Virus record (IMG/VR): IMGVR_UViG_3300044580_000519
Coordinates: 1 to 48,897 of that record
Length of the DNA: 48,897 bases
Direction: 5' to 3' (one strand)
Source of the DNA: a virus
Lineage: Duplodnaviria; Caudoviricetes
This document shows, in pieces, positions 2,988 through 42,855 of this stretch. Both the position numbers and the translations under genes were made by a program. The notes under the pieces are model-generated. The model searched no databases. It saw only the letters and a program-made list of their open reading frames with translations, and was not told the origin of the DNA. The stretch's first letter is position 1; each line of letters starts with the position of its first letter.

Positions 2988-3101
2988 TTAGCATAGCTGG
3001 GAGTTGATATTCGTATTCGTATTCGTGGCCGTGTTATTCGTATTCGCGTAGCTGAAACCCGCATTCGCGCTGTTATTCGCATTACCGCCAAACAAAACGC
3101 C
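2988..3101 (-). repeat. DGR template repeat (TR)
   Basis: Non-coding, AAT/AAC-rich (reads GVLFGGNANNSANAGFSYANTNNTATNTNTNINSQLC*); aligns without gaps to three VR-like segments. Confidence 0.97.
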
Positions 3102-3127
3102 CCAAAAAGCAAACAACCCTTTTTGTT

Positions 3128-3463
3128 TTATTCTAAAAAGTACCTTGTACCTGAAGCGCGCATAGTAACTTTTCTTGGGAAGGCCTTCATTTCTTTAATC
3201 TTTCCAAGTACGTACTTTATTTCGGAAGAATTGGTAAAGAACTTCCGGGCTTCGTTGTCGCTGTCTTCAAGGTTAAACTTAATCTTAACAAGGAAGCGAC
3301 CGTTCTCGAATTTTGTTTTTACGTCGTCCAAATAATCAACTACCCAAAACGAAAGGTTAATTAATTTTTGTTGGTTCGTTTCGGGGCAATTAAAATGCCT
3401 GTTGTTTGCGTCCGGCTGAATCTTTAGGAAGGATAAACTTCCGTCGTCTAATCTTTGTTCCAT
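3128..3463 (-). CDS. Putative DGR accessory protein in the avd position (not recognisably Avd)
   Basis: 111 aa between target gene and TR; beta-rich pattern rather than four-helix bundle. Confidence 0.6.
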   Translation of the reverse strand: MEQRLDDGSLSFLKIQPDANNRHFNCPETNQQKLINLSFWVVDYLDDVKTKFENGRFLVKIKFNLEDSDNEARKFFTNSSEIKYVLGKIKEMKAFPRKVTMRASGTRYFLE

Positions 3464-3515
3464 ATTATTGCTTTTTAAATTTATTATCTCTTATTCGTTG
3501 CGTTACGTGTTAGTT

Positions 3516-4838
3516 TTACGGTATAAAGCAAAGCCGAGAGCCTACATTAGCCGAGATCCCCATATCTGAGTAATCCGTACGGGTGTAGCCTAAACCAGCG
3601 GAAAGACTGGCTTCTGAAGAACCGCCAAAAAGAACAATCCTTTGAATTTCGGATGTTTCCGGTATAGATGTATAGAAGTAGTCGCAAAAGTATGTAGAAG
3701 AAGACGCGCCAACTTCTACGGGCATATTCTCCCCGTATTCTCCAACAATTATGCGCTTTACATAACCTGAATTTCGTGAAAGTAAACCCTTGAATTGGTA
3801 ATTGTCGTAATTGTTGCTTTGAAAGTTAGCCGGGTCTTCGCAAACGTAAAGTTCCGTCATACCCCCACTATCACTATTGCTTTGAATACGTACTTTAACG
3901 CCATCCGTACAACTCCAAATGTGGCCAAATGGATTTTCTAATCCCCTGTAACTTGGAACTTGTACGGTAAGACTTCCGTATTCTTGTGGCATTGCGAAAG
4001 CTACTATACCAGTACGGTTTCCTAAGCTGTTAGTATGTCCTACAGGAATAAAAGGATTATACGAATTAAAAGAACTCCACGTATCACCTACCAAAGTAGT
4101 AACTCCACTTCCTAAGCCGCCTTGTTTATACCCTTCGCTTGTGGGTTCTGCGTTGTACGCATATTGACTATTCAAGTTTGCGTATTCTATCGCGTAAAGC
4201 CAAAAACAAGTTTTTTGAATGTCGTAAACATCGCAATTCCATCCAGCCCCGTTCTTACCGGCTTCTCCCCGTTGGCGTGCGTATGCCCGGTAGTTTGTTA
4301 GGTTGGTAGAAGTTCCCGGCCGTCCTAACAAACTGCGATAGGTTCCGTCCCAACTTGTTATATTGTTTCCGCCCCTGAATTCTGCAGAAGAATTTACTAC
4401 CGAAGCCAATTTAGGTGCGCTACTTACTGTACGGTCTATTGCAGCTTCATAAGCCGAACGGTAACAAAGCGGTACGAAGTGGAAACCGGGTAGCGCGTAT
4501 TCTGAAATAAAACAACGATGTATATACCCGTCTACTTCGAACTTTCGGTAGTGTGCCGGTATTTCTACCATTACTTGTCCGTCGATTCCGTTCAAGTTTG
4601 CGGACGCGTTGTTATCTCGTTTGGTACTATCAGTAGGATTAAGATAATAGTTTACCGTTCCGTCGTCTTTCAAAATGCAACGGCGCATACGACTTTGAAT
4701 GGGCAAAGAAACATGAAGTTCCGGCCTTCCTATTCTATTGCAAGCCGGGTTAGCTACGTTATAATACCATTCTATACCGTAATAGTAATCATACGGAAAT
4801 ATTGGCTTTGTATTGCCAATCCCAATTATTAAGCCCAT
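3516..4838 (-). CDS. Tail fibre / receptor-binding protein with C-terminal C-type-lectin-like domain (ancestral DGR target)
   Basis: YRGLENPFGHIW motif and terminal VLFGG...GSRLCFIP matching TR translation; end of tail module. Confidence 0.8.
   Translation of the reverse strand: MGLIIGIGNTKPIFPYDYYYGIEWYYNVANPACNRIGRPELHVSLPIQSRMRRCILKDDGTVNYYLNPTDSTKRDNNASANLNGIDGQVMVEIPAHYRKFEVDGYIHRCFISEYALPGFHFVPLCYRSAYEAAIDRTVSSAPKLASVVNSSAEFRGGNNITSWDGTYRSLLGRPGTSTNLTNYRAYARQRGEAGKNGAGWNCDVYDIQKTCFWLYAIEYANLNSQYAYNAEPTSEGYKQGGLGSGVTTLVGDTWSSFNSYNPFIPVGHTNSLGNRTGIVAFAMPQEYGSLTVQVPSYRGLENPFGHIWSCTDGVKVRIQSNSDSGGMTELYVCEDPANFQSNNYDNYQFKGLLSRNSGYVKRIIVGEYGENMPVEVGASSSTYFCDYFYTSIPETSEIQRIVLFGGSSEASLSAGLGYTRTDYSDMGISANVGSRLCFIP
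3525..3638 (-). repeat. Degenerate variable repeat VR1
   Basis: Colinear with full TR but about 16 of 50 non-A positions differ in the 3' 78 nt. Confidence 0.8.
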
Positions 4839-4850
4839 AATTTTATACTT

Positions 4851-4925
4851 TTAATAACCCCATTGAGGTTAAGGTTTCCTAAACTTGTTTGTTTAATATC
4901 TTTAATCGGGTTTCAAACCACATAC
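4851..4925 (-). pseudogene. Remnant of a small tail-associated gene (..IKDIKQTSLGNLNL / WGY*)
   Basis: Coding-like fragment with 1-nt frameshift before TGG GGT TAT TAA, no 5' part; family recognised from memory only. Confidence 0.4.
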
Positions 4926-4964
4926 CCCATATCGTTGCTTTTTGCTTCAAAAAAAGAACATATC

Positions 4965-4979
4965 GTATTATTATAATAC
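4965..4979. promoter_or_regulatory. Palindromic operator copy 1 (GTATTA-TTA-TAATAC)
   Basis: Same palindrome at 19923, 21181 and 30791; upstream of tail fibre/DGR unit. Confidence 0.65.
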
Positions 4980-5003
4980 TATTGTTTATAAAAAAATAAT
5001 AAC

Positions 5004-8000
5004 TTAGCTTCTACTATTTAAGTGATAGGCGCGGTAATTAATTCCGTCCCAAACTAAAAAAAATTCTTCTATATCTCCCTTTTCCATAGCCAGGCCCCCG
5101 GTTTCTACCCCTGCATTATTATTTAAACGTTGTGGGTAATTAATACTACTCATATCGGTTCTTTCCGTTGTCCGCCCCCAAATATGCCCCCTTACCGTAC
5201 TATCAGCCGAACAAATAACAGTAAAGCGAATTGCAAACGAAGCCGAAGGATTTATATGCAACCTGGAAGCTATCGACAATCGGGAAGGAAGCCCGAGGCC
5301 GCTATTACTATTAACAAATCTTACTATAACTTTTTGAATACATGGACTTGCTTCTCCCGGTATATGTGTTTTATTTGTATCCGGAGTAATTGCTGTAAAG
5401 GGATAACTTGTAATCATTCCGTTACATACAATATCCCCCGTTGCCGAAATAGCAAAGTTATAAGCTGCATTTTTTACACTAATTAGTAACCCGTAATTTG
5501 TACCGTAGCTATTTGGCGTTTCATTATAAAAACGGCCAACCCCTACAGATCCGATAAAAGCTGGCAAAACGTTTGCTCCAATACTTGCCCAGCAATATGC
5601 GTTAGCAAATTTTATAAAATCGTTGTAAAGGGATAAACCTTGCCCCGAAGTCCCCGTACCGCTTGCCGTTGCTCCAATTTGTCCGCTTTCTATCTCAAAA
5701 CCGCCAATAGAACCCGAAATAGCGTTTATATTTCCTTCTATTGTGGCTTTATTTGCTACAAATGAACCGTCTTGCAATACCCGGAAAGGGGCCATACCTC
5801 TATTTTCATAAGACGCCCCCGCCCAAACACGAACCGAAGAAGAAGTCGTACCTTGCCCGGTAATTCCGGCCAATATGGAACCGCCCGACCCTGCAAGCTG
5901 AACCGTCCCGGAAGTAACTATACCACCGTTTATTGTGGTTACTGTATTGTCGTAATTTACGGCTATTACCCAATCATTAGCGACGTAACTACCCGTTGTT
6001 CTTGCGGTAGAACAACGGCGTAAATCTATGCCGTTTACCCATAAGTCGCCGATTTCGTAAGGAGGGTAAGGCGTGGAAACAAATACCCGCCGTTTTCCGT
6101 CGGCCGTGTCTTGGGCCTGGCCCGCCGCTTCGTATGCGTCTATTGCCTTTTGGTCTTCTATTGTAGTCCAACCATACGTAGAACCTGAAACGGTGTAACG
6201 CTTTAATAGCTTTGTCGCTGAACTATACCACATATCCCCTACGTGTTTAGCTCTAACGGCCGCCGTAGTCCAAGCCGTAGCCGGGTCAGAAGTTTGGAAC
6301 CAACTTTCTATTTTGCCGTCTATTTGGTTCGTTAAATCGTTAATCGTAGAAGCGTAAGAACCGTTTATAAAATTATTTAGACCCGCGTCGCTGGTGTATT
6401 GGCTTGCTTTTTCCCAATCCGAAGAATTATAACTACCTGTTAGGCGTGTAACCTTACATCGCATTATATCCCCGCTTGCGCCTTGTACCCATAAGTCGCC
6501 AATTTCGTAAGGTGTAACCGGGGTTGTCGTGAATATTCGGTTTTTGTTCTTGGCCAAAGCAAGGGCTTCATTTGCCAACGCTAAGGCTTGCGCTAACTCC
6601 GAATCCTGTAATTCCTGCCAACTGTAAACAGTTCCATTCTTTATCCAACGAAAGACCTTACCGGTAGAAGTGTTATAAAACAAGTCCCCTAAATGGTTTT
6701 CTTTGTCAGCGGTAGTTATCCAAGTGTTCGCCGGCGCGTTGCTGGTAGTTGGGTCGTAGGTTTCAAAGAATTGTTCTATTTGTCCGTCTAATTGTGCTTG
6801 TATTTCGTCAAGAATACCGGGTAAGGTGTTATTTATATAATCCTTTGTTTCTTGGGCTACGCTATCCAAGTCGGAAACGTTTTTACTACTTCCGTCGGAA
6901 GAAATAAAATTAATGTTACCGCCTATTTCCTCGTTATCCAAGTCGAAATAAGTACTTCCGCCGCTACTTTCTATTCGTCCGGTTTTAATGAAGCGTCCGG
7001 CAATAGTAGAACTACCATAGGTAAGGGAAACCAAACGCGCGGGGTTTTTTCCGCCTGTGTCGGTTTCTACGCTGTTAAGAACTCCAATTAAAAAAGTATA
7101 ATAGGTTGCTTCATTATCTACTTTTCGTTGGGTTGTATCCAAAATAATACTTCCGGCCCCGGTAGTTTTGGAACAACGGGCGTATATGTAATAAGCCGTA
7201 TTACTTACAAGGTTACTATACGAAACTTGCGCTATTTCCCAAGTCCTTATAACTTCTTCTATTGTGTAGTGTATCAAATGCCCGCCCGTTATTCGTATAT
7301 AATTCGGGTTGCCTTGGTAATTGGGTTCAAAAACAACGTTTCGTAATACGAATTGCATAGACTTTGCTCCAACTTGTAACATTGTTGTTTCAATACTTAG
7401 CGGCTTAATCTTATCGCTATAATAATCCCCTTCGGGGTCGAATACCATAGCTAAAACTTCTTGGCTTGCCCGCCAACTTCTACGGGCCTTTGAAGGGTCG
7501 GCAAGGTTGTTAATCCTTATTACTTCGTCTATTTCCTTTAAGTCGCTTATTACCCTTGTGATGGTGGTTTTGGTTACGCTGTCGCCCAACGTTAAAGAAT
7601 ACTTGTAAGGTTGCAACAAATCCCGTGTAAACCCCGTAATACGTATAGACTTATCTACCCCTAAATCTTCGTCCTTTACCGGTATATAATCCCCTACGGC
7701 AAATAAGTTTACCACGGTAAGTTGTCCCGCAAACTGCTTAATAAAATTTTGGTCTATGTTTAAGCCGTATTGTACTTGGGGTTGGCAATTCTGCAAATAA
7801 TAGCTTTCCCCTTCTTCCTGTAATTCTAATTCGGCTTCCGTTTTATATTGGTCGGGTAGGTTTATATCCGTAAAAAAATACTTATCCCCCGGCGAAAATT
7901 GGAAGGCCGCGCTTGTTTCGCTTGGAAACTTCATACCGCTTTCGTCTGTAAACGGTACTAACTGTATTTCCTTAGTCGAACTATCGTATTTATGTACGTC

Positions 8001-8990
8001 GAATTCATAACCGGCCAAATTGCCCGTAGTAAACTTTACCTTTGCGCTTACGCCTGCTATTAGCCATTTCGTATTACCTTGGCCGTCCTTTTCGTTAAGG
8101 TCGAAATTCATAGTATTATCTATAAAAGCATAATACTTGCTTCCTAAGCCTGTTACTTCGCCGTATCGGTTCGGAAAAATGTTATCAAAAACCTTTGTAT
8201 TTTCTTTCAGTCCGAAAGCTGCAATAGCGGCCGCGCTTTCTATGTAAGAATCATTTTTACCGATACTTCCCGGAAGGCAAAGTTTACTATGTCGGTAAGT
8301 GTTCCCCAAGTTGTTACTTCCGCCGTAAATAAATAACCGGGTAACAACGTTCTTAGAATTTATATTTTGCCTTGTCAATTCGTACAAACCGCCCGTTTTC
8401 CCGTACCTGAATGTATAAGGGAAGGCTACGCCCGCTTTGCGAATATTAAGCGTTCTAATTCCGTTATTTTGCGTTATCTCAAATTCTTGGCTATACTCTT
8501 TGCAAAGGTCTTGTAATACATCTAAACAATTCCTACCGCTAAAAGTCAATGTCTTAAACTCTGTTTCTTGCGGGTATTCTCCAAGAACCCACTTATTAGG
8601 GAATACGCGCAAGACGTTTACTATTACTATTTGTAAGAAGTCTAACAAATTACCGGTAAAGCTGTCGCCTATCGTGTTGTACGGTAGTAAAAATTGTGCG
8701 TCTATTAATTCGTATTGTACCCCTTCAAATGTTAGGGTATATTCAAATTTACGCGTTCCGGTTTTCTTAACGGTCGGTAGTTGGTTTATCGTGTACGTTT
8801 TACCGTAGACCTCTATCGTATCCCCTAAAACAAATTCTAAGGGGGTTGCACTTTTTACCGTAATAGTTACGGTATCTTCCGCAAGAAGTCCTACGGATTG
8901 TTCGGCCTTAGTAATTCCCGAAGTTCGCGGCCCGGAATTTAGCAAGGTAGTGCTTCCGTCGGGGTGAGTAATGATAATATTTGAATTCAT
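5004..8990 (-). CDS. Large tail tip / host-specificity protein
   Basis: 1328 aa after distal-tail gene; N-terminal tail hub-like region (VVTRLFIYGG); internal ~150-aa duplication. Confidence 0.8.
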   Translation of the reverse strand: MNSNIIITHPDGSTTLLNSGPRTSGITKAEQSVGLLAEDTVTITVKSATPLEFVLGDTIEVYGKTYTINQLPTVKKTGTRKFEYTLTFEGVQYELIDAQFLLPYNTIGDSFTGNLLDFLQIVIVNVLRVFPNKWVLGEYPQETEFKTLTFSGRNCLDVLQDLCKEYSQEFEITQNNGIRTLNIRKAGVAFPYTFRYGKTGGLYELTRQNINSKNVVTRLFIYGGSNNLGNTYRHSKLCLPGSIGKNDSYIESAAAIAAFGLKENTKVFDNIFPNRYGEVTGLGSKYYAFIDNTMNFDLNEKDGQGNTKWLIAGVSAKVKFTTGNLAGYEFDVHKYDSSTKEIQLVPFTDESGMKFPSETSAAFQFSPGDKYFFTDINLPDQYKTEAELELQEEGESYYLQNCQPQVQYGLNIDQNFIKQFAGQLTVVNLFAVGDYIPVKDEDLGVDKSIRITGFTRDLLQPYKYSLTLGDSVTKTTITRVISDLKEIDEVIRINNLADPSKARRSWRASQEVLAMVFDPEGDYYSDKIKPLSIETTMLQVGAKSMQFVLRNVVFEPNYQGNPNYIRITGGHLIHYTIEEVIRTWEIAQVSYSNLVSNTAYYIYARCSKTTGAGSIILDTTQRKVDNEATYYTFLIGVLNSVETDTGGKNPARLVSLTYGSSTIAGRFIKTGRIESSGGSTYFDLDNEEIGGNINFISSDGSSKNVSDLDSVAQETKDYINNTLPGILDEIQAQLDGQIEQFFETYDPTTSNAPANTWITTADKENHLGDLFYNTSTGKVFRWIKNGTVYSWQELQDSELAQALALANEALALAKNKNRIFTTTPVTPYEIGDLWVQGASGDIMRCKVTRLTGSYNSSDWEKASQYTSDAGLNNFINGSYASTINDLTNQIDGKIESWFQTSDPATAWTTAAVRAKHVGDMWYSSATKLLKRYTVSGSTYGWTTIEDQKAIDAYEAAGQAQDTADGKRRVFVSTPYPPYEIGDLWVNGIDLRRCSTARTTGSYVANDWVIAVNYDNTVTTINGGIVTSGTVQLAGSGGSILAGITGQGTTSSSVRVWAGASYENRGMAPFRVLQDGSFVANKATIEGNINAISGSIGGFEIESGQIGATASGTGTSGQGLSLYNDFIKFANAYCWASIGANVLPAFIGSVGVGRFYNETPNSYGTNYGLLISVKNAAYNFAISATGDIVCNGMITSYPFTAITPDTNKTHIPGEASPCIQKVIVRFVNSNSGLGLPSRLSIASRLHINPSASFAIRFTVICSADSTVRGHIWGRTTERTDMSSINYPQRLNNNAGVETGGLAMEKGDIEEFFLVWDGINYRAYHLNSRS

Positions 8991-9601
8991 TGTTTTATAA
9001 TTTTTCGTTCAACTTTTTCAACGTCCCAACCAGCCCTATTTAACCTTGCGTATAATATGTATCTATCAATTTTAAGAATTTCGGCGAGTTTAGAAATGGT
9101 TATCATTTCCCCTTTGTAATTGACTTTACGATTATTTGTAAGGTTGTTTTGTTGCTCTTTATTTGTAGCCCAACGACAGTTAGAAGGTTCGTAATTGCCG
9201 TTTACGTCTATTCGGTCTAAGGTTTTACCTTCCGGCCGTTCGCCCATATCTTCTAAAAAGTGTTCAAAATCCGCCCAACGTTCACAAATTCTAATACCAC
9301 GTCCCCCGTAGTTTTTATAACGGGAATTTTGGGGGTTACAGCAACGTTGATGCATCATTTGCCAACATGAATATGTACTACTTGGTTTTTTACCAATTCC
9401 GCCGCTATGTCCATGCTTTATCATAATGCACCCACATGATTTTACGCTTCCGTTACGTAAATGATTTCCGGTTGCTTCTACTATTGTTCCGCAATCGCAA
9501 ATACATTTCCATACTACCTTTCCGCTCGCTCTTTTATCTGTTTTTTCTAAGACCGTAAGAAGGTTGTATTTTTCGCCTGTTAAATCTTTTATTATTTTCA
9601 T
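8987..9601 (-). CDS. HNH homing endonuclease (start revised to ATG 9601)
   Basis: DLTGEKY..WKCICDCG..SCGC N-terminus and TLDRIDVNGNYEPSNCRWAT motif; own promoter. Confidence 0.88.
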   Translation of the reverse strand: MKIIKDLTGEKYNLLTVLEKTDKRASGKVVWKCICDCGTIVEATGNHLRNGSVKSCGCIMIKHGHSGGIGKKPSSTYSCWQMMHQRCCNPQNSRYKNYGGRGIRICERWADFEHFLEDMGERPEGKTLDRIDVNGNYEPSNCRWATNKEQQNNLTNNRKVNYKGEMITISKLAEILKIDRYILYARLNRAGWDVEKVERKIIKQ

Positions 9602-9619
9602 ATCCACATAGTTATATTG

Positions 9620-9627
9620 CAAAGATA
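9620..9627 (-). promoter_or_regulatory. Bacteroidota -7 promoter box (TATCTTTG) for HNH gene
   Basis: Matches TAnnTTTG about 20 nt before ATG 9601. Confidence 0.6.
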
Positions 9628-9628
9628 C

Positions 9629-10837
9629 TTAAAGTTTATTCCACACGATTATACCGTTTGTAGAAAAGTCCGTAATATCTTCAATAACACCGGCTATAAT
9701 AGCGTAGTAAATTCCTTCGTTTCTATATTCGTGAGTTACCGTAATATTTCCCCCGTAAACGTCTTCGGTTTTGGTTCCGTCGCCCCAAAATATGGTTAAG
9801 GCCTTATTCGATTTAACTGCTATCGTAAGGGTCTTTGTAGCTTCGCTTATTCGCTGATGCCTTACAACTCTTTTTACCGGGTTTGGTTCTTTTAATTTTA
9901 GGCTAAAAGTTCCTACCATAAGTTCATCATTCCAACGTTTACTAATGGCTATTCCGCTTTCGTTATAGACTTCGTAAACAAGTGGCTTAGTCGGGTGTAT
10001 GTCTATCATTAAACGCTGTGTACCGTCCTTGCTGAATATATCTAAGAAGCTATTTAGCTTATTAACGAAGTCCATTTTTCCGTTAGCCTTCATAAAACAA
10101 TTAAGCGTTATTTCCCGCGCTTCTACGCGTTTTCTTTGAAGGTCTATTACTTCGCCGTGGTAGTCGTCCCAATCTATTTTAAGCGGATTTTTTAGCTTGG
10201 GACGGTCAAGAATACCGTTACTTTCCGCTACGTAAATACCCCACTCCTTAAAATCGCTTCCGTCCAAAATGTACGAAAGTTGGGCTACCGAATTAAGAAG
10301 TTCGGATATTTGGTCTTGGGTAAGTGCAATATTATAGGCCTTTAATTCGTCTACATACCCGTAGCCGTATTCGGTAGAATAAATATCTTGCAAGAAGGCG
10401 AAGCCGGTAGGCTGTGCCGGTAAAGTAATAGTTTCTACTAATTTCGTATCCAAGTAAATATAGATATTAAGCCCTTCCTTTACGACCGCAAAGTAGCCCC
10501 AAGAATCCGTAGGAAGGCTTACCCACGTTTCCCTGTATCCGTCCATAGCTTCCCAACGAACAAAAAAGCCTATCTTTTTACCGGTAAACCCGTCCGGGTA
10601 GTGTTTACTTTTCAACCAAGCCAAAAGGGAAAAACTACCCGAAAGATTAATAAGGTTTTGCGGTATTTCGCAGTATCCTTCCCCCGTGAACTCTATACAA
10701 TTCCCTTGCCTTCCCGAAACGAAATTACTTTGTATTACCGTTCCGTCCGCCCGGCTTTGTGAATAATCGTAAGCTATTAAAGAGCCGTTAGGTTCGTCGA
10801 ACGGCATATTAAGAATTAAATTATTATCGTTAGCCAT
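9629..10837 (-). CDS. Distal tail protein with N-terminal LamG/concanavalin-like domain and C-terminal PKD-like motif
   Basis: LamG-like motifs (GYVDELKAYNIALT); IFWGDG PKD-like motif; follows tape measure. Confidence 0.7.
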   Translation of the reverse strand: MANDNNLILNMPFDEPNGSLIAYDYSQSRADGTVIQSNFVSGRQGNCIEFTGEGYCEIPQNLINLSGSFSLLAWLKSKHYPDGFTGKKIGFFVRWEAMDGYRETWVSLPTDSWGYFAVVKEGLNIYIYLDTKLVETITLPAQPTGFAFLQDIYSTEYGYGYVDELKAYNIALTQDQISELLNSVAQLSYILDGSDFKEWGIYVAESNGILDRPKLKNPLKIDWDDYHGEVIDLQRKRVEAREITLNCFMKANGKMDFVNKLNSFLDIFSKDGTQRLMIDIHPTKPLVYEVYNESGIAISKRWNDELMVGTFSLKLKEPNPVKRVVRHQRISEATKTLTIAVKSNKALTIFWGDGTKTEDVYGGNITVTHEYRNEGIYYAIIAGVIEDITDFSTNGIIVWNKL

Positions 10838-10858
10838 GTTAGTATGTTTTATTAATTA

Positions 10859-30758: not shown

Positions 30759-30780
30759 AACTCATTGTTTGTTATGGCTA

Positions 30781-30815: not shown

Positions 30816-30858
30816 CAAAGTAGGGAATCAATTACTTAGAATTGAAAAGTTACCAACA

Positions 30859-31986: not shown

Positions 31987-32174
31987 AATTTTGTTGATTT
32001 TATTAAACTTACTTTTAATTCGTTCGCCGAAGAATCGAAGAAAGCCTTATATTCGTTTACTACTACTATTTCTTCGCCTAAACAAAGGTCTATTACTATC
32101 CTTTGCCGACTAAGTAGCTTGTTAATCTTCCGTAGGGCTGTCTTCCTTCTTTTTTTTACTATCCTTCGTTTCAT
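31983..32174 (-). CDS. Hypothetical basic protein
   Basis: ATGA overlaps at both ends. Confidence 0.55.
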   Translation of the reverse strand: MKRRIVKKRRKTALRKINKLLSRQRIVIDLCLGEEIVVVNEYKAFFDSSANELKVSLIKSTKL

Positions 32175-32761: not shown

Positions 32762-32764
32762 AGC

Positions 32765-33310: not shown

Positions 33311-33498
33311 ACTTCTTGCTTTAGAATGTTTAATAACTCGTTTGCTTGCCTTATCTTTTTGAACTCCTTTACCGTGTGCCAAAAAAGGAAGTTCTTAACT
33401 TGTACCGCGAATGAAATTATTACTTCCGGCTGGCTGTATTCTTCTTCCGGCCAAGTGCTATTAACGGTAAATATCTGTTTCTTAACTCTGTATTTCAT
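33307..33498 (-). CDS. Hypothetical protein
   Basis: Coupled ORF. Confidence 0.6.
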   Translation of the reverse strand: MKYRVKKQIFTVNSTWPEEEYSQPEVIISFAVQVKNFLFWHTVKEFKKIRQANELLNILKQEV

Positions 33499-33510
33499 GG
33501 CTGTAAGTTA

Positions 33511-33930
33511 TTAAAATGGTAAGTCGTCGTTTACGTCGTTAGAAAAAGGTACTTCCGGTTGGGAATATGCCGGGGTCGGGCCTGGTTCTCTATTCTCGTT
33601 TTGTTGTTCGGCTGGTTTATTTCCGCCTAAAAGCTGCAATTCCCGAACCCTGCAACTTAGCCCAACTTGTGGGGTTCCGCTTCCGTCGTTATAAACCTTT
33701 GCCGAAAGTTCGCCCCGAAGGAATACGCGCGTTCCTTTCTTCAAGTAATTAATTACCGCGCTTTCGCCGTGTTTAAGGCAACTAATCCAAGTTGTACGTT
33801 CGCGCTTTTGTCCTTGGCCGTCGTTGTAGCTTTCGGTATGTGCTACGCTGAAAGAAATAAACTTTTGGCCGCTAAACTCTTTAATAGTGGCATCCCCGCC
33901 AAGGTTGCCGATAATTTCTACTACTAACAT
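33511..33930 (-). CDS. ssb: Single-stranded DNA-binding protein
   Basis: IIGNLGGDA, YLKKGTRV, acidic DDLPF tail. Confidence 0.95.
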   Translation of the reverse strand: MLVVEIIGNLGGDATIKEFSGQKFISFSVAHTESYNDGQGQKRERTTWISCLKHGESAVINYLKKGTRVFLRGELSAKVYNDGSGTPQVGLSCRVRELQLLGGNKPAEQQNENREPGPTPAYSQPEVPFSNDVNDDLPF

Positions 33931-33941
33931 AATTTACTGTT

Positions 33942-34169
33942 TTACTGATTAATATTATTTTCAAATCTCATACAAGCGTTATCCATTCGTTTAACCGCTT
34001 TTACCCCGTAGGGCGTTCGGTTGCTTTTCGTAATTGTGCAATACCAATACCTATTAGAATAGGGGTTAAGGTTTGCTATATGCTTACAATCCCTACAGCG
34101 TTTTCCGGGGTAAGGAAGGCTTTCTTTCGGGTCTATTTCCGGTATGTCAAATAAAGTTTTCATTTTCAA
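33942..34169 (-). CDS. Small Cys-rich hypothetical protein
   Basis: CRDCKH..C..C pattern. Confidence 0.6.
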   Translation of the reverse strand: MKMKTLFDIPEIDPKESLPYPGKRCRDCKHIANLNPYSNRYWYCTITKSNRTPYGVKAVKRMDNACMRFENNINQ

Positions 34170-35971: not shown

Positions 35972-35977
35972 AAATTA

Positions 35978-36865
35978 TTATCTAAAAACCCCCAATTCTC
36001 TATTAATTTTATCGTTACTAATTGCTACGTACTCCGGGTTTAACTCGAAACCTATGTAATTGCGGTATAATTTCCGGGCTACTATTGCGGTTGTCCCGGA
36101 ACCCATAAAGGGGTCAAGAACTACCCCGCCTTCAGGGCAACCCGCTTTAATGCAATCAACTATAAGCGTGTCGGGGAATACTGCAAAATGATTTTCTTTA
36201 TTAGGCTTAGTCGGAACACTCCAAACGTCCCGCTTATTGACTTTTTCGGTAGGTGTAAAAGTCCTATCCGTATTTCTTCTATAAATAGGGTCGGTAGTAT
36301 CTACTTCCGTCCTCTTATTTCCGCCTATTCTGTAAGCTGCAGGGTTCATGTTCGGTTTGGCTGGTATTTGTATCGCTTCTTTGTCAAAGTAATAGTTTGC
36401 AGACTTGCTCAACAAAAAAATATATTCGTGGCTTTTACCACAACGGTCTTTAACGCTTTCCGGCATAGCGTTAGGTTTATGCCATATAATATCTTGCCGT
36501 AAATACCAACCTTCCCGGCGAAGTGCAAAGGCAAGTATCCAAGGGATACCTATTAAATCTTTGGGTTTTATAAATTCGTGTTTCTTATCCGTTGGCCTTG
36601 TATATCCTTTTCCGCTCCAGTAAGAATCCCCTATATTAATCCAAAGCGTACCGGTAGGCTTCAATACTCTATAAACTTCCATAAAAACCCCTACTAAGCG
36701 GTCTATATATTCTTCCGGCGTGTCTTCTAATCCTATTTGTTCATTTGCCCCGTAATCCCTAAGTCCGTAATAAGGCGGGGAAGTTACGCAACAATCTATA
36801 CTATTGTCTGGAAGGTTTTTTAGTCCGTTTTTGCAATCGTTATTATATATAATATTTATGTCCAT
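35978..36865 (-). CDS. N4/N6 DNA methyltransferase (beta class)
   Basis: TSPPY, HFAVFP, DPFMGSGTT. Confidence 0.92.
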   Translation of the reverse strand: MDINIIYNNDCKNGLKNLPDNSIDCCVTSPPYYGLRDYGANEQIGLEDTPEEYIDRLVGVFMEVYRVLKPTGTLWINIGDSYWSGKGYTRPTDKKHEFIKPKDLIGIPWILAFALRREGWYLRQDIIWHKPNAMPESVKDRCGKSHEYIFLLSKSANYYFDKEAIQIPAKPNMNPAAYRIGGNKRTEVDTTDPIYRRNTDRTFTPTEKVNKRDVWSVPTKPNKENHFAVFPDTLIVDCIKAGCPEGGVVLDPFMGSGTTAIVARKLYRNYIGFELNPEYVAISNDKINRELGVFR

Positions 36866-36871
36866 AGCGTA

Positions 36872-37438
36872 TTATAGTAAGACGTTTTCAACTTGCTTTA
36901 CTCGCTCCCTAAATTCGGGGTTAAATTTGTAGTCGTCTTTGTATTTTCGTATGTAGTAAACTATTGTACTGTGGTTATGCTTCATTTCGTCGGCTATACG
37001 TTGAACCGTTGCGCCTTGCTCCCTACAATAGTGTGCGAATATCATACGGGCGTAGACTTGCTTTCTTTCCCGGCTTGGCCCTACTATATCGACAAAGGAA
37101 ATTCCCATAGCTTCGGCTATTGCTTCTTTTATCTCTATGAAGGTGGCTACTTCTTGGTATATAATTTGTTTCCCGGTAAATTCCGCTATCTTTTTTTCAA
37201 GCGTAGCCCCTTTTGAGTAAGCCCAATCCGGCAACAAATAAATAGCTTGGCAACCTATAAGTAATAGTATGTCCATAGCTATATGAACTTCCCAAGGTGC
37301 GTTATATGGAATACCGTTTTTAAGCGGGTTTACAACTTCGTAACCTTGTGCTATTAACTCACTTTCTATATTTTCAAACTTAGCCTTTGTTTCATCAAAG
37401 GGAAGGCCGCTAATTTGTCCCGAAATGTATATTTTCAT
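36872..37438 (-). CDS. DUF4406-like domain fused to DnaA C-terminal-like HTH
   Basis: KIYISGQISG..W..SKGATLE; SRERKQVYARMIF..NHSTIVY. Confidence 0.7.
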   Translation of the reverse strand: MKIYISGQISGLPFDETKAKFENIESELIAQGYEVVNPLKNGIPYNAPWEVHIAMDILLLIGCQAIYLLPDWAYSKGATLEKKIAEFTGKQIIYQEVATFIEIKEAIAEAMGISFVDIVGPSRERKQVYARMIFAHYCREQGATVQRIADEMKHNHSTIVYYIRKYKDDYKFNPEFRERVKQVENVLL

Positions 37439-38094
37439 TTTCTATAAGTCTTATTTGCAAAATGTATTCTATCGAACATTTCCGTAAAACGGTCGGCTAT
37501 TCTTTCGCCGTACTTTTCCCGTAATTGTTCTTCTCCTAAATTGCTTGTCATTATCGTAAATAATTGCCGATCGTACCGGTAGTAAATTGTATCTACGAAG
37601 GGGCTTATTTCATTCCCCCAAACCTTAATAATTGAAGGTTCTACCCCTACGTCGTCAATAGCCAATAATTCGGCTTTTTGTAATATCTCAAATCGCCCGT
37701 TTTCTTCTTTGGCTATATTAGCAAGTTCCAACGCTGAAACGGTAGCTATTCCTTTTCTTTCGTTGCTATATGCTGAATCGTAAAGAAGTCCTATAAGTCT
37801 CCTTATCGCTTTTATTAGGGTTGTTTTTCCGTTACCTACAGAACCGTATAAAAGAAGTCCGGGTTTGAAGTTTCCTACTATCCACTTAGCCGCTTTATTT
37901 AAGTGTTCGGTAGTTGCTTCGTCGTCCTTAAACGTAAATCCGCGCCTTACAACTTCGTCTATATAACATTCGCGTAGCATTGCCGGAATGTCTTCTGTAT
38001 ATCGGTCTATCTTAAAGCGTTGTTCTAAAGGTTTCCTTTGTAGAATCTCCCGAAACTGCTGTATGTTTATTCTTTGCGGTTCCTGTTTTTCCAT
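37435..38094 (-). CDS. DnaC/IstB-like AAA+ helicase loader
   Basis: GSVGNGKT, LLAIDDVG, TSNL, YGERIADRF. Confidence 0.88.
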   Translation of the reverse strand: MEKQEPQRINIQQFREILQRKPLEQRFKIDRYTEDIPAMLRECYIDEVVRRGFTFKDDEATTEHLNKAAKWIVGNFKPGLLLYGSVGNGKTTLIKAIRRLIGLLYDSAYSNERKGIATVSALELANIAKEENGRFEILQKAELLAIDDVGVEPSIIKVWGNEISPFVDTIYYRYDRQLFTIMTSNLGEEQLREKYGERIADRFTEMFDRIHFANKTYRK

Positions 38095-38719
38095 TGCCGT
38101 TTTCGTTAAATCCGTTTTTCTCCCAAGTACGAACGGCCGCCTTCCAATCCTTCATAGGGTTTTTTCCAACCTTCCAACCGTTAGACGTGTAGTGGTCTAT
38201 CCATTGTTGTGGGTCTACGCCGTTCCCGCGCTCTTTACAATATTCCGTAACTTCTTCTAAGGTAGGTTTTACAAATAGCTTGTTTTTACCTTCCGTTCCC
38301 TTAGCTTCGCACGCTTTTTTAGTCGCTGGCAAGGGGGTAGTAAGGGGCTTAGTTGTTCCTTCTTGGCTCCATTTAGTCAATACGTCAAGTAGTTGATATT
38401 TATTTAACTTCTCAATAGCCGACCGGTGGGCCGGGTTCTTTTCGTTTAATTCGGTTCCGTATTGGAATTCTATAAAGTCGGGAAGAAAAGCCTTAGCGTC
38501 GTTATTAAAGAAGTGAATCCTACCGTTAAACGCTTGCTTTATTTCGTCCAAACTGTATTTATGTCCGCAGAACAATTCCGCCGCTTCTATATCTACTTCC
38601 AATATCCCCGCGTTATCACATTCGCAAAAAAAGTAAACCCATAGCAACTTATAAGCCCCTTTTAACCCCCTTACAAAGCGTTTTTTAAATAGGTCTGAAT
38701 CTATAAATCTTTTAGCCAT
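38012..38719 (-). CDS. Replication initiator protein
   Basis: N-terminal wHTH (CDNAG), C-terminal FVKPTLEEV..Y..NGWKVGKNPMKDWKAAVRTWE; precedes loader. Confidence 0.8.
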   Translation of the reverse strand: MAKRFIDSDLFKKRFVRGLKGAYKLLWVYFFCECDNAGILEVDIEAAELFCGHKYSLDEIKQAFNGRIHFFNNDAKAFLPDFIEFQYGTELNEKNPAHRSAIEKLNKYQLLDVLTKWSQEGTTKPLTTPLPATKKACEAKGTEGKNKLFVKPTLEEVTEYCKERGNGVDPQQWIDHYTSNGWKVGKNPMKDWKAAVRTWEKNGFNENGNGKTGTAKNKHTAVSGDSTKETFRTTL

Positions 38720-38773
38720 ATCTTTGAAAGGTTAAGGCTATACCGCCCGAAGCCGGTATAACCTGAATTAGTG

Positions 38774-39517
38774 TTATTGTTCAATTATCGCAATTTCGGG
38801 GCTTATTTCCCGGATAGCTTCTACTTGCTCGTTTATTGCTTCGTCCCGCATTTCTTCTATAATTTGGTTGGCGGCAGGGCTGAAAAGCTGTAAATAAACG
38901 TCGCTTCCGTCTATCGTAGCGTAAACTTCTACCTGAACGCTCGCGGGTGCAACTCCCTTAAAAATCGGAATTGTAAGCGTAAAGGCTTCCGGTAAGTTGC
39001 TATTAACAACTTGGCCGTAACTCATTTTCATACTACCGTTTTCCTTACTCTGTCTATCCATTGAAGAATTAACGGTAGCCGAAAAGTTTTTTAAGTCGCT
39101 TACTAACTTCATATTCTCGTCCCGGTTCGGGAAAAATGCCCGGTTCATTTTGAAGAATTGCCCCAATTCGGCCGGTTCCCATGTCCTTTTTTGGTTTATT
39201 CCGAATTCTAAAAACTTAGGGTGTAAACTCAAAGCCCCTACTACCTTACCGCTTAAATATTCGTCGTTTTCCGCCGTAATAAGGGTAATAGTAAGTTTTT
39301 CGCGGTTTACTATTACGTGGCAACGTTTAGGGTTAATTTGGTCTTCTTCCGAACCCCGTTTAGTAAGGAATTCTACCGGCGCGCTAATAACGCCGCAAAT
39401 GTCAATTTTTACCGGGGCCTTTGGGTCTAAAACTTTAGGGGCCGCGCCTTCTCTTAATACTACTTCGGCATGGGCTACACCTTGCCCTAAGTTAATTTGT
39501 AATTTCTCGTTTTGCAT
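38774..39517 (-). CDS. Conserved phage hypothetical protein
   Basis: 247-aa ORF in early operon. Confidence 0.7.
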   Translation of the reverse strand: MQNEKLQINLGQGVAHAEVVLREGAAPKVLDPKAPVKIDICGVISAPVEFLTKRGSEEDQINPKRCHVIVNREKLTITLITAENDEYLSGKVVGALSLHPKFLEFGINQKRTWEPAELGQFFKMNRAFFPNRDENMKLVSDLKNFSATVNSSMDRQSKENGSMKMSYGQVVNSNLPEAFTLTIPIFKGVAPASVQVEVYATIDGSDVYLQLFSPAANQIIEEMRDEAINEQVEAIREISPEIAIIEQ

Positions 39518-39528
39518 GATTGAAAAAA

Positions 39529-39960
39529 TTAATTATTAGTACCTGTTTTTCTCTTTACGTGGAATATATTACCCTGCAATTCGTCCGGGTAAGCGGGTCG
39601 ACTCTCTATTAGGTCGCCGTCCGCGTTATAGTATCCTACTTCGCGAACTTCCATATCTACGAATTTGTAGCACTTTTCCGTAACGTATTCCGCTTTGTTT
39701 TTAAGGCCTTTTAGTAGCCTTTTCCGTTCGTCCGTTAAAGGTTCAAGGCGCGCCTTAAAATCCTTTACTACTTCTTTTTTTTCTTCTTCAATATCGTTAA
39801 TCTCGATATCGGTTTCGGAAAGCCCTTCTTTCATTCGTGCCATTTCTTCGGTGGTAAATCTTTTCATATACCCCTTTTCTTCTATTTTGTCGCAGTTGCT
39901 TTCCAAGAAGTCGATACGCCTTGCGCCCGCTTCAATGTCTTTACCTAATTCCCTATCCAT
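39529..39960 (-). CDS. Hypothetical coiled-coil protein
   Basis: 143-aa ORF in early operon. Confidence 0.7.
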   Translation of the reverse strand: MDRELGKDIEAGARRIDFLESNCDKIEEKGYMKRFTTEEMARMKEGLSETDIEINDIEEEKKEVVKDFKARLEPLTDERKRLLKGLKNKAEYVTEKCYKFVDMEVREVGYYNADGDLIESRPAYPDELQGNIFHVKRKTGTNN

Positions 39961-39963
39961 AGC

Positions 39964-40491
39964 TTATTTTATTAAAAGGAAATCGTTATAAAGGCCTTCA
40001 AACGTTTTTCCGGCGTACGCGGCGAGTTCAAGTGTTTTAAAGCAAAGCCGGGAGCAGATATACGTATACGTATGCGTGGCCGTGTGAATCGAATACGCGC
40101 AGCCGAAACCCGCAGAATGTTGGTTATATACGAACCAAGGCCAATACTTATACTCGTTGCTATTAGTCCAATCCGGCCGCCAACCTTCGTTAAGGGCTTC
40201 GCCAATGGTTTTTAGCTTACGGTAGGCTATTTCGTCTTTTGTAAAACCTAACTTTTGTAGAACTTCGTCTACAATTGGTTCAACTCCAAGAACCGCGCAA
40301 GCGTCGGCGTAATTTCTTACCCGCTTAATATCCTTCGGGTTTGTTTTGGCTACGGCTTTTAAAGTCGTAACTTCTACACCTAACTTTTCGGCCAAGCGTT
40401 CCGCTTCTTTGGTAGCCGCCGTTTCGTCTTCATACTTAACCGTAGGCGCGCCTTGGCCTTCGGCGTAATTCATAAAAAAGTCTTTTTTCAT
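39964..40491 (-). CDS. Remote DGR target protein A (175 aa, unknown function)
   Basis: Contains VR2; paralog of 42445-42855 (DACxVLG, ALNEGWxPxW, EYKY, SRLCFK). Confidence 0.9.
   Translation of the reverse strand: MKKDFFMNYAEGQGAPTVKYEDETAATKEAERLAEKLGVEVTTLKAVAKTNPKDIKRVRNYADACAVLGVEPIVDEVLQKLGFTKDEIAYRKLKTIGEALNEGWRPDWTNSNEYKYWPWFVYNQHSAGFGCAYSIHTATHTYTYICSRLCFKTLELAAYAGKTFEGLYNDFLLIK
40039..40116 (-). repeat. Variable repeat VR2
   Basis: 78 nt vs TR 2988-3065: 17 mismatches, all at TR adenines. Confidence 0.96.
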
Positions 40492-40503
40492 TTTTCTAAA
40501 ATT

Positions 40504-40903
40504 TTAAATATCAAATAAATTACCCTGTTTTCCTTCCCTTGCCTGTTGGTAAAGAATTCGCCTTTGTCGCGCAATGCTTAACCGTACCGCTCTTATAGCG
40601 TCTTCGCGTCCTTTAAGGCTTTCTTCGTATTCCAAAAGTTCGGCTTCCGTTTCTGCAATAAAATAATCTTCCGAAGTTGCTATAAGACCCGGTATAAGGT
40701 CGTTAGTACGAATGTGGTTTATAATCTTTCTTACCCGTGCGTCTGAAATCTTATAAGCGGGTTTTAGCGTTGCTACTATTGCTTGTTTGTAACCGCGCTA
40801 TTATGTCCTATTTTCGTTTGTAAACCCCGAACCAAAAGCGGAAGAAGTACCCCCGTTTCGTAATCGGTTAAGGGTTGCGTTTCATTATCAAATCCTTTTA
40901 ATG
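40504..40903 (-). pseudogene. Frameshifted winged-helix-like gene (KGFDNETQPLTDYE..ISDARVRKIINHIR..)
   Basis: No ATG start; 1-nt frameshift near 40781 joins two coding-like frames ending TAA 40504-40506. Confidence 0.7.
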
Positions 40904-40904
40904 G

Positions 40905-41645
40905 CTAAAAAGGGGTTTTATTAAAGTTTATTTCTAATCCCGGTTCCGCTATAAATACCCTTTTCCCGGTAGCTTCCTTTATTCCTTCTTGGAAGGCCTT
41001 AGCGTCGCTATTACCGTCTGATAAGTGTATCAAAACAATGTTATTTACTGCTTTAATGTCATTAGCTTGCAGCGCGTCTAAACAATGTTTATAGCTGAAA
41101 TGTGATTTTATAATACGGTTGCGAACAATAGAAGGAACACGCCCGGCGGCTATATTTGCTTCTAAAATATCTAACCGGTAATTACATTCTATCAATACGT
41201 TATTAAGGCCCGCGAACTTACAAGGCAAGTAATAAGTATCGGTAGCAAACAGAACCTTTCCCGTTTCTTCGTGGTTAATGAAGAACCCCAAAGGTTCCGC
41301 GCAATCGTGCATAACATTGAAGGGTATAATTTGGAATCCGCCCAACTTAAAAAGCGCGCCGGCTTCACAATAAAGCGGGAGCCGGTCGCCTTTTATAGTC
41401 AAATTCTTAATAGTCCCTTCCGATGCAAATACGGGAATACAAGCCCCTAAAAACTCGTTAATATATCCGGCATGGTCTTTATGTTCGTGGGTAATTAGGC
41501 AGCCTATAACCTTCTTTATATTGAAGTCTAACGCGCGTTTTACTTCCGCAAACTTTACCCCAGCTTCCAATATAAGGGCTTCGCGTTCGTTCTCCAATAG
41601 GTAGCAATTACCACAGCTACTACTGCCTAATACTTTCAAAATCAT
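40905..41645 (-). CDS. Metallo-beta-lactamase-fold hydrolase (probable exonuclease)
   Basis: LGSSSCGN, THEHKDH, HD, TDT, IHLS motifs. Confidence 0.9.
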   Translation of the reverse strand: MILKVLGSSSCGNCYLLENEREALILEAGVKFAEVKRALDFNIKKVIGCLITHEHKDHAGYINEFLGACIPVFASEGTIKNLTIKGDRLPLYCEAGALFKLGGFQIIPFNVMHDCAEPLGFFINHEETGKVLFATDTYYLPCKFAGLNNVLIECNYRLDILEANIAAGRVPSIVRNRIIKSHFSYKHCLDALQANDIKAVNNIVLIHLSDGNSDAKAFQEGIKEATGKRVFIAEPGLEINFNKTPF

Positions 41646-41647
41646 AA

Positions 41648-42448
41648 TTAAAAGACGGGAGTTTTAGTTTTATTTTTAGGGGTAGCTTCCGGGCCTGGCC
41701 CTTCCGGTTGTTGGTCGAAATTTAAAGTACCGTCCGCGTTAGCTTTGGTAGCTATTTCGCTTTCTACCGTTTCCGTTACGTCTTCGTGCGTAATATCTAC
41801 TACGCTACTTTGTTCGTCGGCTTCTCCGAAGTCGCAACCCGTAATATATTCGTATAGGGCTTTTTTGGCGCGTCTTTCCGCTTTCCCGCGTAATTGGTCG
41901 GGGCTGCTATATTCGTCCTTCTTTACCGTAGCTATCACCCCGAAGCTGTTTTTTTCGCCGTTATGTTCGTAATTGATTTTACAGGGTATTTCCGCGAAGT
42001 TTGGGTTTTGCCCTTTATCAAAAGAAACATCTATAAAATACTTAACCCCAAGGCGTCGAAGAAGGGCGGTATAGCCTTCTTTGGTAGGGTACATCCGTTC
42101 CGCAATAATATTAAATTGGTTTCCGGTAGGAAGAAGCCCAATACTAACCGCGTCTATAATTGCGTCCCTAACTACCGGAATAGTATAAACCGGAAGGGCC
42201 GGACGGCCGTTGCTTCTTGGTCTACCGTTTCGGTCGGTAAGAAAGCCTACTTTCGTATTCATAAGCGGCATAAACACCTTATTCATAACTTCGTCCGTTA
42301 ATGCTTCCCGAAGCAAGGCAATAACATTAACCGCCGTAAAAGCGGCCCCAAAGTTGTTTACAATCTGCAACGCCGAAGCGTCTTTACAGGCTAATTCAAA
42401 TTTCATTTTCGCCTGTTCAATTACTGTTAAACCTGTTTCTTGGCTCAT
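41648..42448 (-). CDS. Putative single-strand annealing recombinase (RecT-like)
   Basis: Position between SMC-like ATPase and MBL nuclease; acidic flexible C-terminus; family not confirmed. Confidence 0.5.
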   Translation of the reverse strand: MSQETGLTVIEQAKMKFELACKDASALQIVNNFGAAFTAVNVIALLREALTDEVMNKVFMPLMNTKVGFLTDRNGRPRSNGRPALPVYTIPVVRDAIIDAVSIGLLPTGNQFNIIAERMYPTKEGYTALLRRLGVKYFIDVSFDKGQNPNFAEIPCKINYEHNGEKNSFGVIATVKKDEYSSPDQLRGKAERRAKKALYEYITGCDFGEADEQSSVVDITHEDVTETVESEIATKANADGTLNFDQQPEGPGPEATPKNKTKTPVF

Positions 42449-42855
42449 TTTCCGTAATTTTTAGGAAGTTCAATAAATAAATATTCAAAATATAAATCCC
42501 GGAATTGAACGCGCGCGTAGCGTGCTAACGTGTCGCTTTTAAAGCAAAGCCGGGAGTTGATATTCGGATACGTATTCGTGGCCGTGCTATTCGCATACGC
42601 GTAGCCGAAACCCGCAGAATCCAAATAGAACCAATTAAAATACTTGTATTCGTTCCAATCATTCCAATTTGGTTCCCAGCCTTCATTAAGGGCGCGAATT
42701 ATTACCGTTAGCTTATAGTAAGCTATAATAGACTTGCGGTCTTTTTCGGGCAATAAATCTACTACCGGGAGTTGTTTAGGGTCTAAGCCCAATACCTTAC
42801 AAGCGTCCTCAAACGTTTTTACCTTGTCGGTAATCTTTATTTCTTCTTTTTTCAT
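42445..42855 (-). CDS. Remote DGR target protein B (136 aa, unknown function)
   Basis: Contains VR3; paralog of 39964-40491. Confidence 0.9.
   Translation of the reverse strand: MKKEEIKITDKVKTFEDACKVLGLDPKQLPVVDLLPEKDRKSIIAYYKLTVIIRALNEGWEPNWNDWNEYKYFNWFYLDSAGFGYAYANSTATNTYPNINSRLCFKSDTLARYARVQFRDLYFEYLFIELPKNYGK
42541..42618 (-). repeat. Variable repeat VR3
   Basis: 78 nt vs TR 2988-3065: 12 mismatches, all at TR adenines. Confidence 0.96.

What the first reader, a model, noticed from the sequence alone, without database searches (positions are those of the whole stretch)
2988..42618. DGR re-targeted from the tail fibre to two remote early-operon genes
Seen: TR 2988-3065 matches 40039-40116 and 42541-42618 without gaps. 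All 50 non-A positions are identical; 17 and 12 substitutions fall only on the 28 TR adenines. The adjacent tail-fibre VR has about 16 non-A mismatches. The remote targets are 37-40 kb away (at least about 9-12 kb across att if circularised), among recombination genes, and are small with no signal or TM segment. Known: characterised phage DGRs (BPP-1 mtd) diversify a neighbouring receptor-binding protein; remote targets are described mainly on bacterial chromosomes. Inference: this phage hypermutates two intracellular early proteins, for example binders of host defence or regulatory proteins, with about 22 free adenines (4^22, about 10^13 DNA variants) each. Neighbourhood-limited DGR tools would miss this.
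Basis: partly seen in the sequence, partly recalled or inferred. Interest (0 to 1): 0.97.

Follow-up and report, generated by a model that had tools for sequence, protein, structure and literature searches.

The report
Phage mutator rewrites two early genes
This phage's mutation-generating retroelement template matches one loop in each of two related small genes 37-40 kb away among its likely early genes, while its tail-fibre gene no longer matches (likely a swapped-in allele, since close relatives still match at the fibre); such distant non-tail targets are already published, and what the proteins likely bind inside the host is untested.

Summary
Observation confirmed (minus strand). A 74-nt template core matches two remote repeats at all 50 non-adenine sites, with 13 and 8 adenine changes; the fibre repeat has 16 non-adenine mismatches. 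'Re-targeted' is too strong. Close relatives match the template at the fibre too, 103 of 107 related fibre+RT loci conform, and a related prophage holds all three repeats in register. The ancestral state is fibre plus remote targets; this genome most likely carries a swapped-in, drifted fibre allele (mis-assembly not excluded). The remote targets are paralogues of a large unnamed phage family (4,926 clusters). Adenine-restricted variation is seen in orthologues, and a template adenine that the relatives examined lack is copied into VR3. Other phages keep the retroelement beside two such paralogues with no tail target. A homologue is the distal target of LoVEphage; distal non-tail phage targets are published (Wu 2018, Benler 2021, Dahlman 2025), and this scan noted the family many times on other DNA. 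Still open: the predicted scaffold is mostly helical with no C-type-lectin match (inconclusive), and the ligand is unknown. New variant of a known kind.

The parts
1869..2885 (-). DGR reverse transcriptase, 338 aa, intact, YADD motif present
   Evidence: RVT_1 E 1e-18, phrog_1423 E 1e-131, translation
2988..3103 (-). Template repeat (TR); the fibre of relatives uses about 114 nt, the remote targets use the 3' 74 nt (3063-2990)
3128..3463 (-). Accessory gene, 111 aa, in the usual avd position but with no Avd hit; language-model lead to a phi29-SSB-like family
   Evidence: phrog_19665; no Pfam or NCBIfam hit; atlas cluster with PF17427 on 34% of members
3516..4838 (-). Tail (fibre-like) protein gene, 440 aa, intact; allele more diverged from relatives than the cassette
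   Evidence: phrog_5302 tail protein E 3e-116; 83-93% nt identity to L188 against 97-100% for the cassette
3525..3638 (-). VR1, degenerate: 28 of 79 non-A mismatches to TR, 18 at third codon positions, 15 synonymous; sequence 3' of it nearly identical to a conforming relative
39964..40491 (-). Remote target gene 1, 175 aa, long form of the phrog_11581 family
40041..40114 (-). VR2, internal (codons 127-150): 0 of 50 non-A mismatches, 13 of 24 adenines changed
40905..41645 (-). Metallo-beta-lactamase-fold hydrolase (neighbour)
   Evidence: phrog_392; all beta-lactamase models far below cut-off
41648..42448 (-). 266-aa conserved neighbour of unknown family (labelled 'recT' in scripts as a guess only)
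   Evidence: no hit; syntenic in relatives
42445..42855 (-). Remote target gene 2, 136 aa, short form of the same family
42543..42616 (-). VR3, internal (codons 81-104): 0 of 50 non-A mismatches, 8 of 24 adenines changed; carries the TR adenine that the relatives examined lack
42875..44905 (-). SbcC-like AAA ATPase (neighbour)
   Evidence: phrog_77, AAA_23
46524..46913 (+). Repressor-like regulator, divergent from the long minus-strand gene run that holds both targets
   Evidence: phrog_8, phrog_4 weak hits
47530..48897 (+). Tyrosine integrase (temperate phage)

Best explanation
The window is a temperate phage, likely of a Bacteroidota host, whose DGR template matches an internal loop of two paralogous small genes in the replication/recombination block at every non-adenine site; the DGR likely still rewrites both loops, while the tail-fibre gene, a third target in relatives, is here likely a swapped-in, drifted allele that TR no longer matches. 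Mechanism, step by step. (1) From established BPP-1 work: TR RNA is reverse-transcribed with errors at adenines and the cDNA replaces any VR that offers the 3' signal and homology, so distance does not matter. (2) Shown by sequence: VR2 and VR3 carry that signature and vary at adenine sites among relatives. (3) Predicted: each target is a mostly helical soluble scaffold that displays the 24-residue variable loop. (4) Inferred from gene position and lack of a membrane segment: the proteins are made early and act in the cytoplasm. (5) Inferred, untested: the loop binds a fast-changing intracellular partner, most likely a host defence or regulatory protein, and two paralogues give two independently drawn binders or a two-loop complex. 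(6) Inferred: the fibre allele came in by recombination near the gene's 3' end; because the downstream signal looks intact, a rare homing event could restore matching.
For: Exact non-A identity against a shuffle maximum of 27 of 50. Eight proteins 88-92% identical to the VR3 protein: seven alignable without gaps differ at 8-13 residues inside the VR and 2-8 of about 106 outside; four have only adenine-reachable residues, three have 1-2 others, one (P0007) has a deletion. Nineteen sister VR2 orthologues are all different: 20 of 21 TR-adenine sites polymorphic (heterozygosity 0.52), against 4 of 58 non-A sites (0.011) and 38 of 450 outside (0.017). In contigs of three sequencing runs, 15 of 16 listed differences inside VR2/VR3 fall on TR adenines (only 40 of 127 rows were shown and rows mix in TR or VR1 contigs). 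The window TR has A at 3004 where L001 and four runs have G; window VR3 has the same A where three runs have G, giving the only Asn among 140 aligned proteins at a column with 132 Gly. Fibre: L001 conforms over 114 nt with 0 non-A mismatches; in runs X1 and X5 the fibre repeat lies on window TR, not on window VR1; identity to L188 drops from 97% to 69% at 3513 and stays 83-93% along the gene; no protein over 73% identical in residues 300-440 among 174 hits. A related prophage has fibre, VR2 and VR3 identical to each other at all 50 non-A sites. AlphaFold model with 140 sequences: pLDDT 82, helices over 90, loop 81-97 under 50. In three unrelated phages the paralogues sit among helicase, primase, replication or methylase genes.
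Against: No reads from this genome's own sample, so present activity and the fibre junction are not shown directly. No expression, localisation or ligand data. Both window VRs have lost a near-invariant Gly (Cys, Asn), which may mean these alleles are unselected or non-functional. Twenty-four records carry family genes without a detectable RT (0 of 13 at least 90% complete; positive control 3 of 3), and one relative has deleted TR and RT, so diversification is dispensable. No shared GC hairpin with a 4-nt loop like BPP-1's was found 3' of the VRs. The relatives are not independent: many loci are near-identical phages found by similarity to the RT, fibre or target.
Confidence: 0.6

Rival explanations
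1. True re-targeting: selection moved this lineage's DGR from the fibre to the early genes, and VR1 decayed in place.
For: VR1 mismatches are mostly third-position and half synonymous, as expected of long drift; other phages have DGRs that target only this family.
Against: Relatives whose cassette is 97-100% identical still conform at the fibre; 35% divergence at non-A sites cannot build up while TR and RT stay 97-100% identical; the whole fibre gene is more diverged than the cassette.
Confidence: 0.1
2. The degenerate fibre repeat is an assembly chimera: the assembler crossed the variable VR1 into the fibre gene of a co-occurring related phage.
For: The allele is seen once only; the identity break lies at the short shared 3' stretch; variable repeats are known to break assemblies (Benler 2021, passage).
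Against: The fibre ORF is intact, and the upstream tail gene is also mosaic against L188 (62-98%), so natural exchange in this module is common; a second phage with this drifted allele would still have to exist.
Confidence: 0.12
3. The small proteins are virion or surface components (accessory receptor binding or superinfection exclusion), not cytoplasmic binders of host proteins.
For: Most described phage DGR targets are tail or structural proteins (Roux 2021, passages); the loop is drawn from the same template as the fibre tip.
Against: Genes lie far from the structural block here and in three unrelated phages; no membrane segment; similarity to the fibre profile covers only 31 columns, the TR-imposed loop.
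Confidence: 0.15
4. The remote repeats are passengers: homing hits any gene that once picked up a TR copy, and the variation has no function.
For: The cassette is often lost while the genes stay; 3 of 10 sister remote VRs carry single-base indels.
Against: In 6 of 6 whole records examined (5 at least 99% complete) the only TR matches are two family genes beside the RT; 18 of 58 family loci have the RT next door, 17 of them with at most 2 non-A mismatches in the best aligned stretch; the family is paired with different TRs and RTs 60-80% identical.
Confidence: 0.08

Closest known systems
Distal second DGR target of Quimbyvirus (Benler et al. 2021, PMC8008677) and LoVEphage (MW660583, QVQ57199.1)
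   Same: One TR beside a tail gene also matches a small gene among non-structural genes. LoVEphage QVQ57199.1 is 30% identical to the VR2 protein (E 8e-19), matches its own TR over 112 nt with 0 non-A mismatches 15.5 kb away, and lies near methyltransferases and an RtcB tRNA ligase, the neighbourhood Benler describes.
   Different: Two distal paralogues here, not one; the fibre repeat no longer matches; different phage group (49 kb against 71 kb). Benler calls both targets C-type lectin proteins; my models did not reproduce that for this family (inconclusive). I did not fetch the Quimbyvirus genome, so its identity with this family rests on the LoVEphage homologue and matching neighbourhood.
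Four inducible gut prophage species with a distal second VR (Dahlman et al. 2025, PMC12629997)
   Same: [quoted passage not shown]
   Different: Described as one extra VR beside tail targeting; no fold or function given in the passages read.
Non-adjacent targets of phage-associated DGRs (Wu et al. 2018, PMC5758913)
   Same: Targets within 50 kb of the RT in the same prophage; two phage-associated DGRs with no adjacent target at all.
   Different: No link to this protein family in the passages read; here the adjacent target is present but degenerate.
Bordetella phage BPP-1 DGR (mtd, avd, TR, brt)
   Same: Order target-accessory-TR-RT, YADD RT, adenine-only differences, AAY-rich TR codons.
   Different: Accessory protein has no Avd hit; no shared GC hairpin found; matching targets are remote, internal VRs in non-tail genes.

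Membership tests
Diversity-generating retroelement | Reverse transcriptase with intact catalytic motif beside TR | tested here: met
   338 aa, YADD, phrog_1423
Diversity-generating retroelement | TR-VR pair differing only at TR adenines | tested here: met
   VR2 and VR3: 0 of 50 non-A mismatches
Diversity-generating retroelement | Adenine-restricted variation of VR among related genomes | tested here: met
   shown in relatives, not in reads of this genome
Diversity-generating retroelement | Accessory gene of the Avd family | tested here: inconclusive
   A conserved gene is in that position, but without an Avd hit; lead to an SSB-like family
Diversity-generating retroelement | GC-rich hairpin with 4-nt loop 3' of VR (BPP-1 type) | tested here: inconclusive
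   No common hairpin in folds of 85-nt stretches from the window and relatives; conforming VRs of relatives lack it too
Diversity-generating retroelement | Mutagenic retrohoming shown by experiment | not testable with these tools
   needs RT mutant and tagged TR
BPP-1-type DGR with an adjacent receptor-binding target | Adjacent tail gene VR matches TR | tested here: not met
   16 of 50 non-A mismatches in this genome; met in close relatives
Quimbyvirus/LoVEphage-type distal non-structural target | Homology to the distal target protein | tested here: met
   30% and 28% identity to LoVEphage QVQ57199.1, E 8e-19 and 6e-12
Quimbyvirus/LoVEphage-type distal non-structural target | Position outside the structural block, far from RT | tested here: met
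C-type lectin DGR variable protein | VR inside a C-type lectin fold | tested here: inconclusive
   Two models of the 136-aa protein are mostly helical; no listed match reaches Z 5 or E 0.001 in solved structures; the loop is poorly modelled, and absence from the lists does not exclude the family. The 175-aa protein was not modelled.

The most novel reading that the evidence does not exclude
The phrog_11581 family is a third kind of DGR display scaffold, a small helical intracellular binder unrelated to C-type lectin or Ig folds, that Bacteroidota phages diversify singly, in pairs or as fused tandems to track host defence proteins; in this genome the DGR serves only these binders.
Probability: 0.3. 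Interest if true: 0.8.

Novelty: new variant of a known kind. Interest (0 to 1): 0.45.

Why it matters
Phage DGRs are read as host-range machines. This locus, with relatives whose DGR targets only the small family, shows the same machine kept for proteins that are likely not in the virion. A family of thousands of clusters with a hypervariable loop on an unassigned fold is a ready handle on an open question: what intracellular partner changes fast enough to need it. The layout itself is published, and the loss of fibre matching looks like a one-genome event, so the gain is a sharper test case, not a new system.

Tried and rejected
Lineage-wide re-targeting: rejected. That window VR1 was written by some other TR: no better template among the fetched loci. 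Fold searches gave no convincing solved match: Foldseek PDB none at E 0.001, VIA best Z 3.4 and 3.8; the viral library gave only uncharacterised phage proteins. Sequence searches of PDB gave nothing significant for the target family or the fibre, so the fibre's own lectin fold is also unshown. Pfam: nothing for 140 family members or 30 long or fused forms; NCBIfam nothing for either target. Raw-read run X24 held next to nothing of the stretch. The window's fibre has no match in 18 records with local small targets (no positive control in that call). A complex prediction of the two paralogues was not available, so pairing is untested. BT-TP2 was fetched as a possible cultured model but not analysed. 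Eight paper searches and the passages read showed no description of this family's fold or of a fibre repeat decoupled from TR; the library lacks most subscription journals, one Dahlman supplement is a scan and its tables and figures were not seen, and bioRxiv supplements are closed.
Full report
Observation. The window is a 48.9-kb temperate phage: integrase at the right end, a long minus-strand run of regulatory, replication, methylase, head, tail and lysis genes. The host is likely Bacteroidota, inferred from named relatives. The DGR cassette reads tail gene (4838-3516), 111-aa accessory gene, TR, RT with YADD (2885-1869). A scan of both strands with adenines as wildcards finds two hits besides TR itself: 40114-40041 and 42616-42543, each 74 nt with 0 of 50 non-A mismatches and 13 and 8 of 24 adenines changed. 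Shuffled windows reach at most 27 of 50; the fibre's 3' end scores 34 of 50, that is 16 mismatches. The upper bound on loop protein variants is about 4x10^13.

The remote targets are real. Both genes belong to phrog_11581 and are paralogues, a long and a short form. Eight proteins 88-92% identical to the short form differ mainly inside the VR, nearly always by adenine-reachable residues; one has a deletion. In a sister phage group (RT about 80% identical) I gave 20 of 24 orthologue loci to a polymorphism count and one dropped out for lack of an anchor: the 19 VRs are all different, with 20 of 21 adenine sites polymorphic against 4 of 58 non-A sites and 38 of 450 sites outside. Contigs from three public runs differ from the window at 16 listed VR2/VR3 positions, 15 of them TR adenines (a partial listing). 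One site points to recent activity in this lineage. The window TR has A at 3004, where L001 and four runs have G; window VR3 has the same A where three runs have G. A G cannot be changed by this RT, so VR3 was most likely rewritten after the template changed; a short gene conversion is the alternative.

The fibre mismatch is peculiar to this genome. L001, with RT 99% and accessory gene 97% identical, matches its TR at the fibre over 114 nt with 0 non-A mismatches. In runs X1 and X5 the fibre repeat lies on window TR and leaves window VR1 uncovered. Of 107 distinct fibre+RT loci, 103 have at most 3 non-A mismatches in 84 nt; two exceptions have indels by their translations, two have 5 and 7; the window has 20 of 55. 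These loci are not independent. Of 10 contigs with RT and a VR2 orthologue, all match at the remote gene (three with single-base indels), and 9 of 9 whose fibre was held match there too. A Bacteroidales prophage has fibre, VR2 and VR3 identical at all 50 non-A sites, though TR and RT are deleted; L289 has both remote genes in register. So the ancestral state is three targets. Window VR1 mismatches are 18 of 28 third-position and 15 synonymous, the whole gene is 83-93% identical to L188 while the cassette is 97-100%, and the break is at the gene's 3' end. This fits import of a long-drifted allele; no close copy was found among 174 hits, and a chimeric assembly cannot be excluded. The DNA 3' of VR1 is almost the same as in L001 and a 9-nt exact match to TR remains; in BPP-1, 8 bp suffices at low efficiency (Guo 2011, PMC3240598, passages). 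VR1 is therefore better called decoupled than abandoned.

The family. A profile finds 4,926 clusters at 50% identity; 19 of the top 150 hold two copies of the domain, a ranking that favours such proteins. In 18 of 58 viral loci the RT sits beside two or three family genes, and TR matches them. In six whole records, five at least 99% complete, these are the only TR matches; in three examined, the cassette lies among helicase, primase, replication or methylase genes. Twenty-four other records show no RT. DGRs devoted to this family therefore exist, and the cassette comes and goes. Sister phages lack the short paralogue and hold a 99-aa gene in its place, which is fused to the family domain in three proteins. 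Two models of the short form give a helical scaffold with the VR as a low-confidence loop. No solved fold matches, and likeness to the fibre profile is limited to 31 columns of the loop. A lectin fold is neither shown nor excluded.

Mechanism. Shown: template, RT, two conforming repeats, adenine-restricted variation in relatives. From BPP-1 knowledge: homing depends on local signals, not distance. Predicted: helical scaffold with an exposed loop. Inferred: early cytoplasmic expression and binding of a variable host protein, most likely in defence or regulation, from gene position, lack of a membrane segment and nearby methylases. No ligand evidence exists. Against a simple picture: both window alleles have lost a near-invariant Gly, many phages keep the genes without RT, and no BPP-1-like hairpin was found.

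What is known. All papers were read as passages found by term search. Wu 2018 (PMC5758913) reports many non-adjacent targets within 50 kb in phage-associated DGRs, two with no adjacent target. Benler 2021 (PMC8008677) describes a distal, non-structural Quimbyvirus target near methyltransferases and a tRNA ligase. Dahlman 2025 (PMC12629997; supplements searched in part) reports four prophage species with a distal second VR. A Dutch cohort study notes distant repeats in multiple phage genomes (PMC9610469). I tested the link: LoVEphage QVQ57199.1 is homologous to both window proteins and is a 0-mismatch target of its own TR, next to a conforming tail-collar VR. Passages of PMC10743442, PMC11792537, PMC9727126, PMC12694917 and two bioRxiv preprints did not describe this family. 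Earlier notes of this scan report the same arrangement on several other genomes; none was returned for a decoupled fibre.

Verdict. A real DGR with two remote non-tail targets of a published kind. New here: two distal paralogues, a fibre allele uncoupled from TR in one genome, and evidence that the family may use a non-lectin scaffold. New variant of a known kind; interest 0.45.

Noticed in passing
window 3463-3128 (-): The accessory gene has no Avd hit; atlas lead to a phi29-type SSB family (34% of one cluster). Homologues lie upstream or downstream of the RT in 87 of 167 RT-bearing loci (duplicates and cut loci included), so it may be a different DGR accessory factor.
   Followed up: partly
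L380 6759-8200 (G038): Related prophage with TR and RT deleted: truncated accessory gene, an inserted stretch with an HNH-like reading frame (judged by eye), and the RT's last residues left before the next gene; all three VRs remain in register.
   Followed up: partly
L149 3503-3799 and 22 other loci of the sister group: A 99-aa gene fills the slot of the VR3 gene between the SbcC-like ATPase and the 266-aa gene; the same domain is fused to the DGR-target domain in P0302, P0310 and P0274.
   Followed up: partly
L038 9995-10375: Single family gene that looks like a hybrid of two tandem paralogues joined at the VR, as from recombination between the repeats.
   Followed up: no
L045 5737-5810: The TR itself has few adenines and 6 non-A mismatches to each VR, as if the template had been partly overwritten by a mutated copy.
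   Followed up: no
L161, L185, L187: Three of ten remote VRs carry single-base indels that shift the frame; homing errors or assembly errors.
   Followed up: no
window 24991-23297 (-): Minor head protein with a C-terminal part resembling ADP-ribosyltransferases (phrog_16625; NF041404 far below cut-off).
   Followed up: no
window about 40900-40500 (-): An open frame of about 130 codons without ATG lies between the hydrolase and the VR2 gene; not listed among ORFs with common starts of that length, not annotated.
   Followed up: no
L359: Five family genes spread over about 10 kb before an RT.
   Followed up: no
GenBank phage records: The closest named RTs (58-63%) are in crAss-like phages, and weak homologues of the target family occur in cr60_1 and cr109_1.
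   Followed up: no
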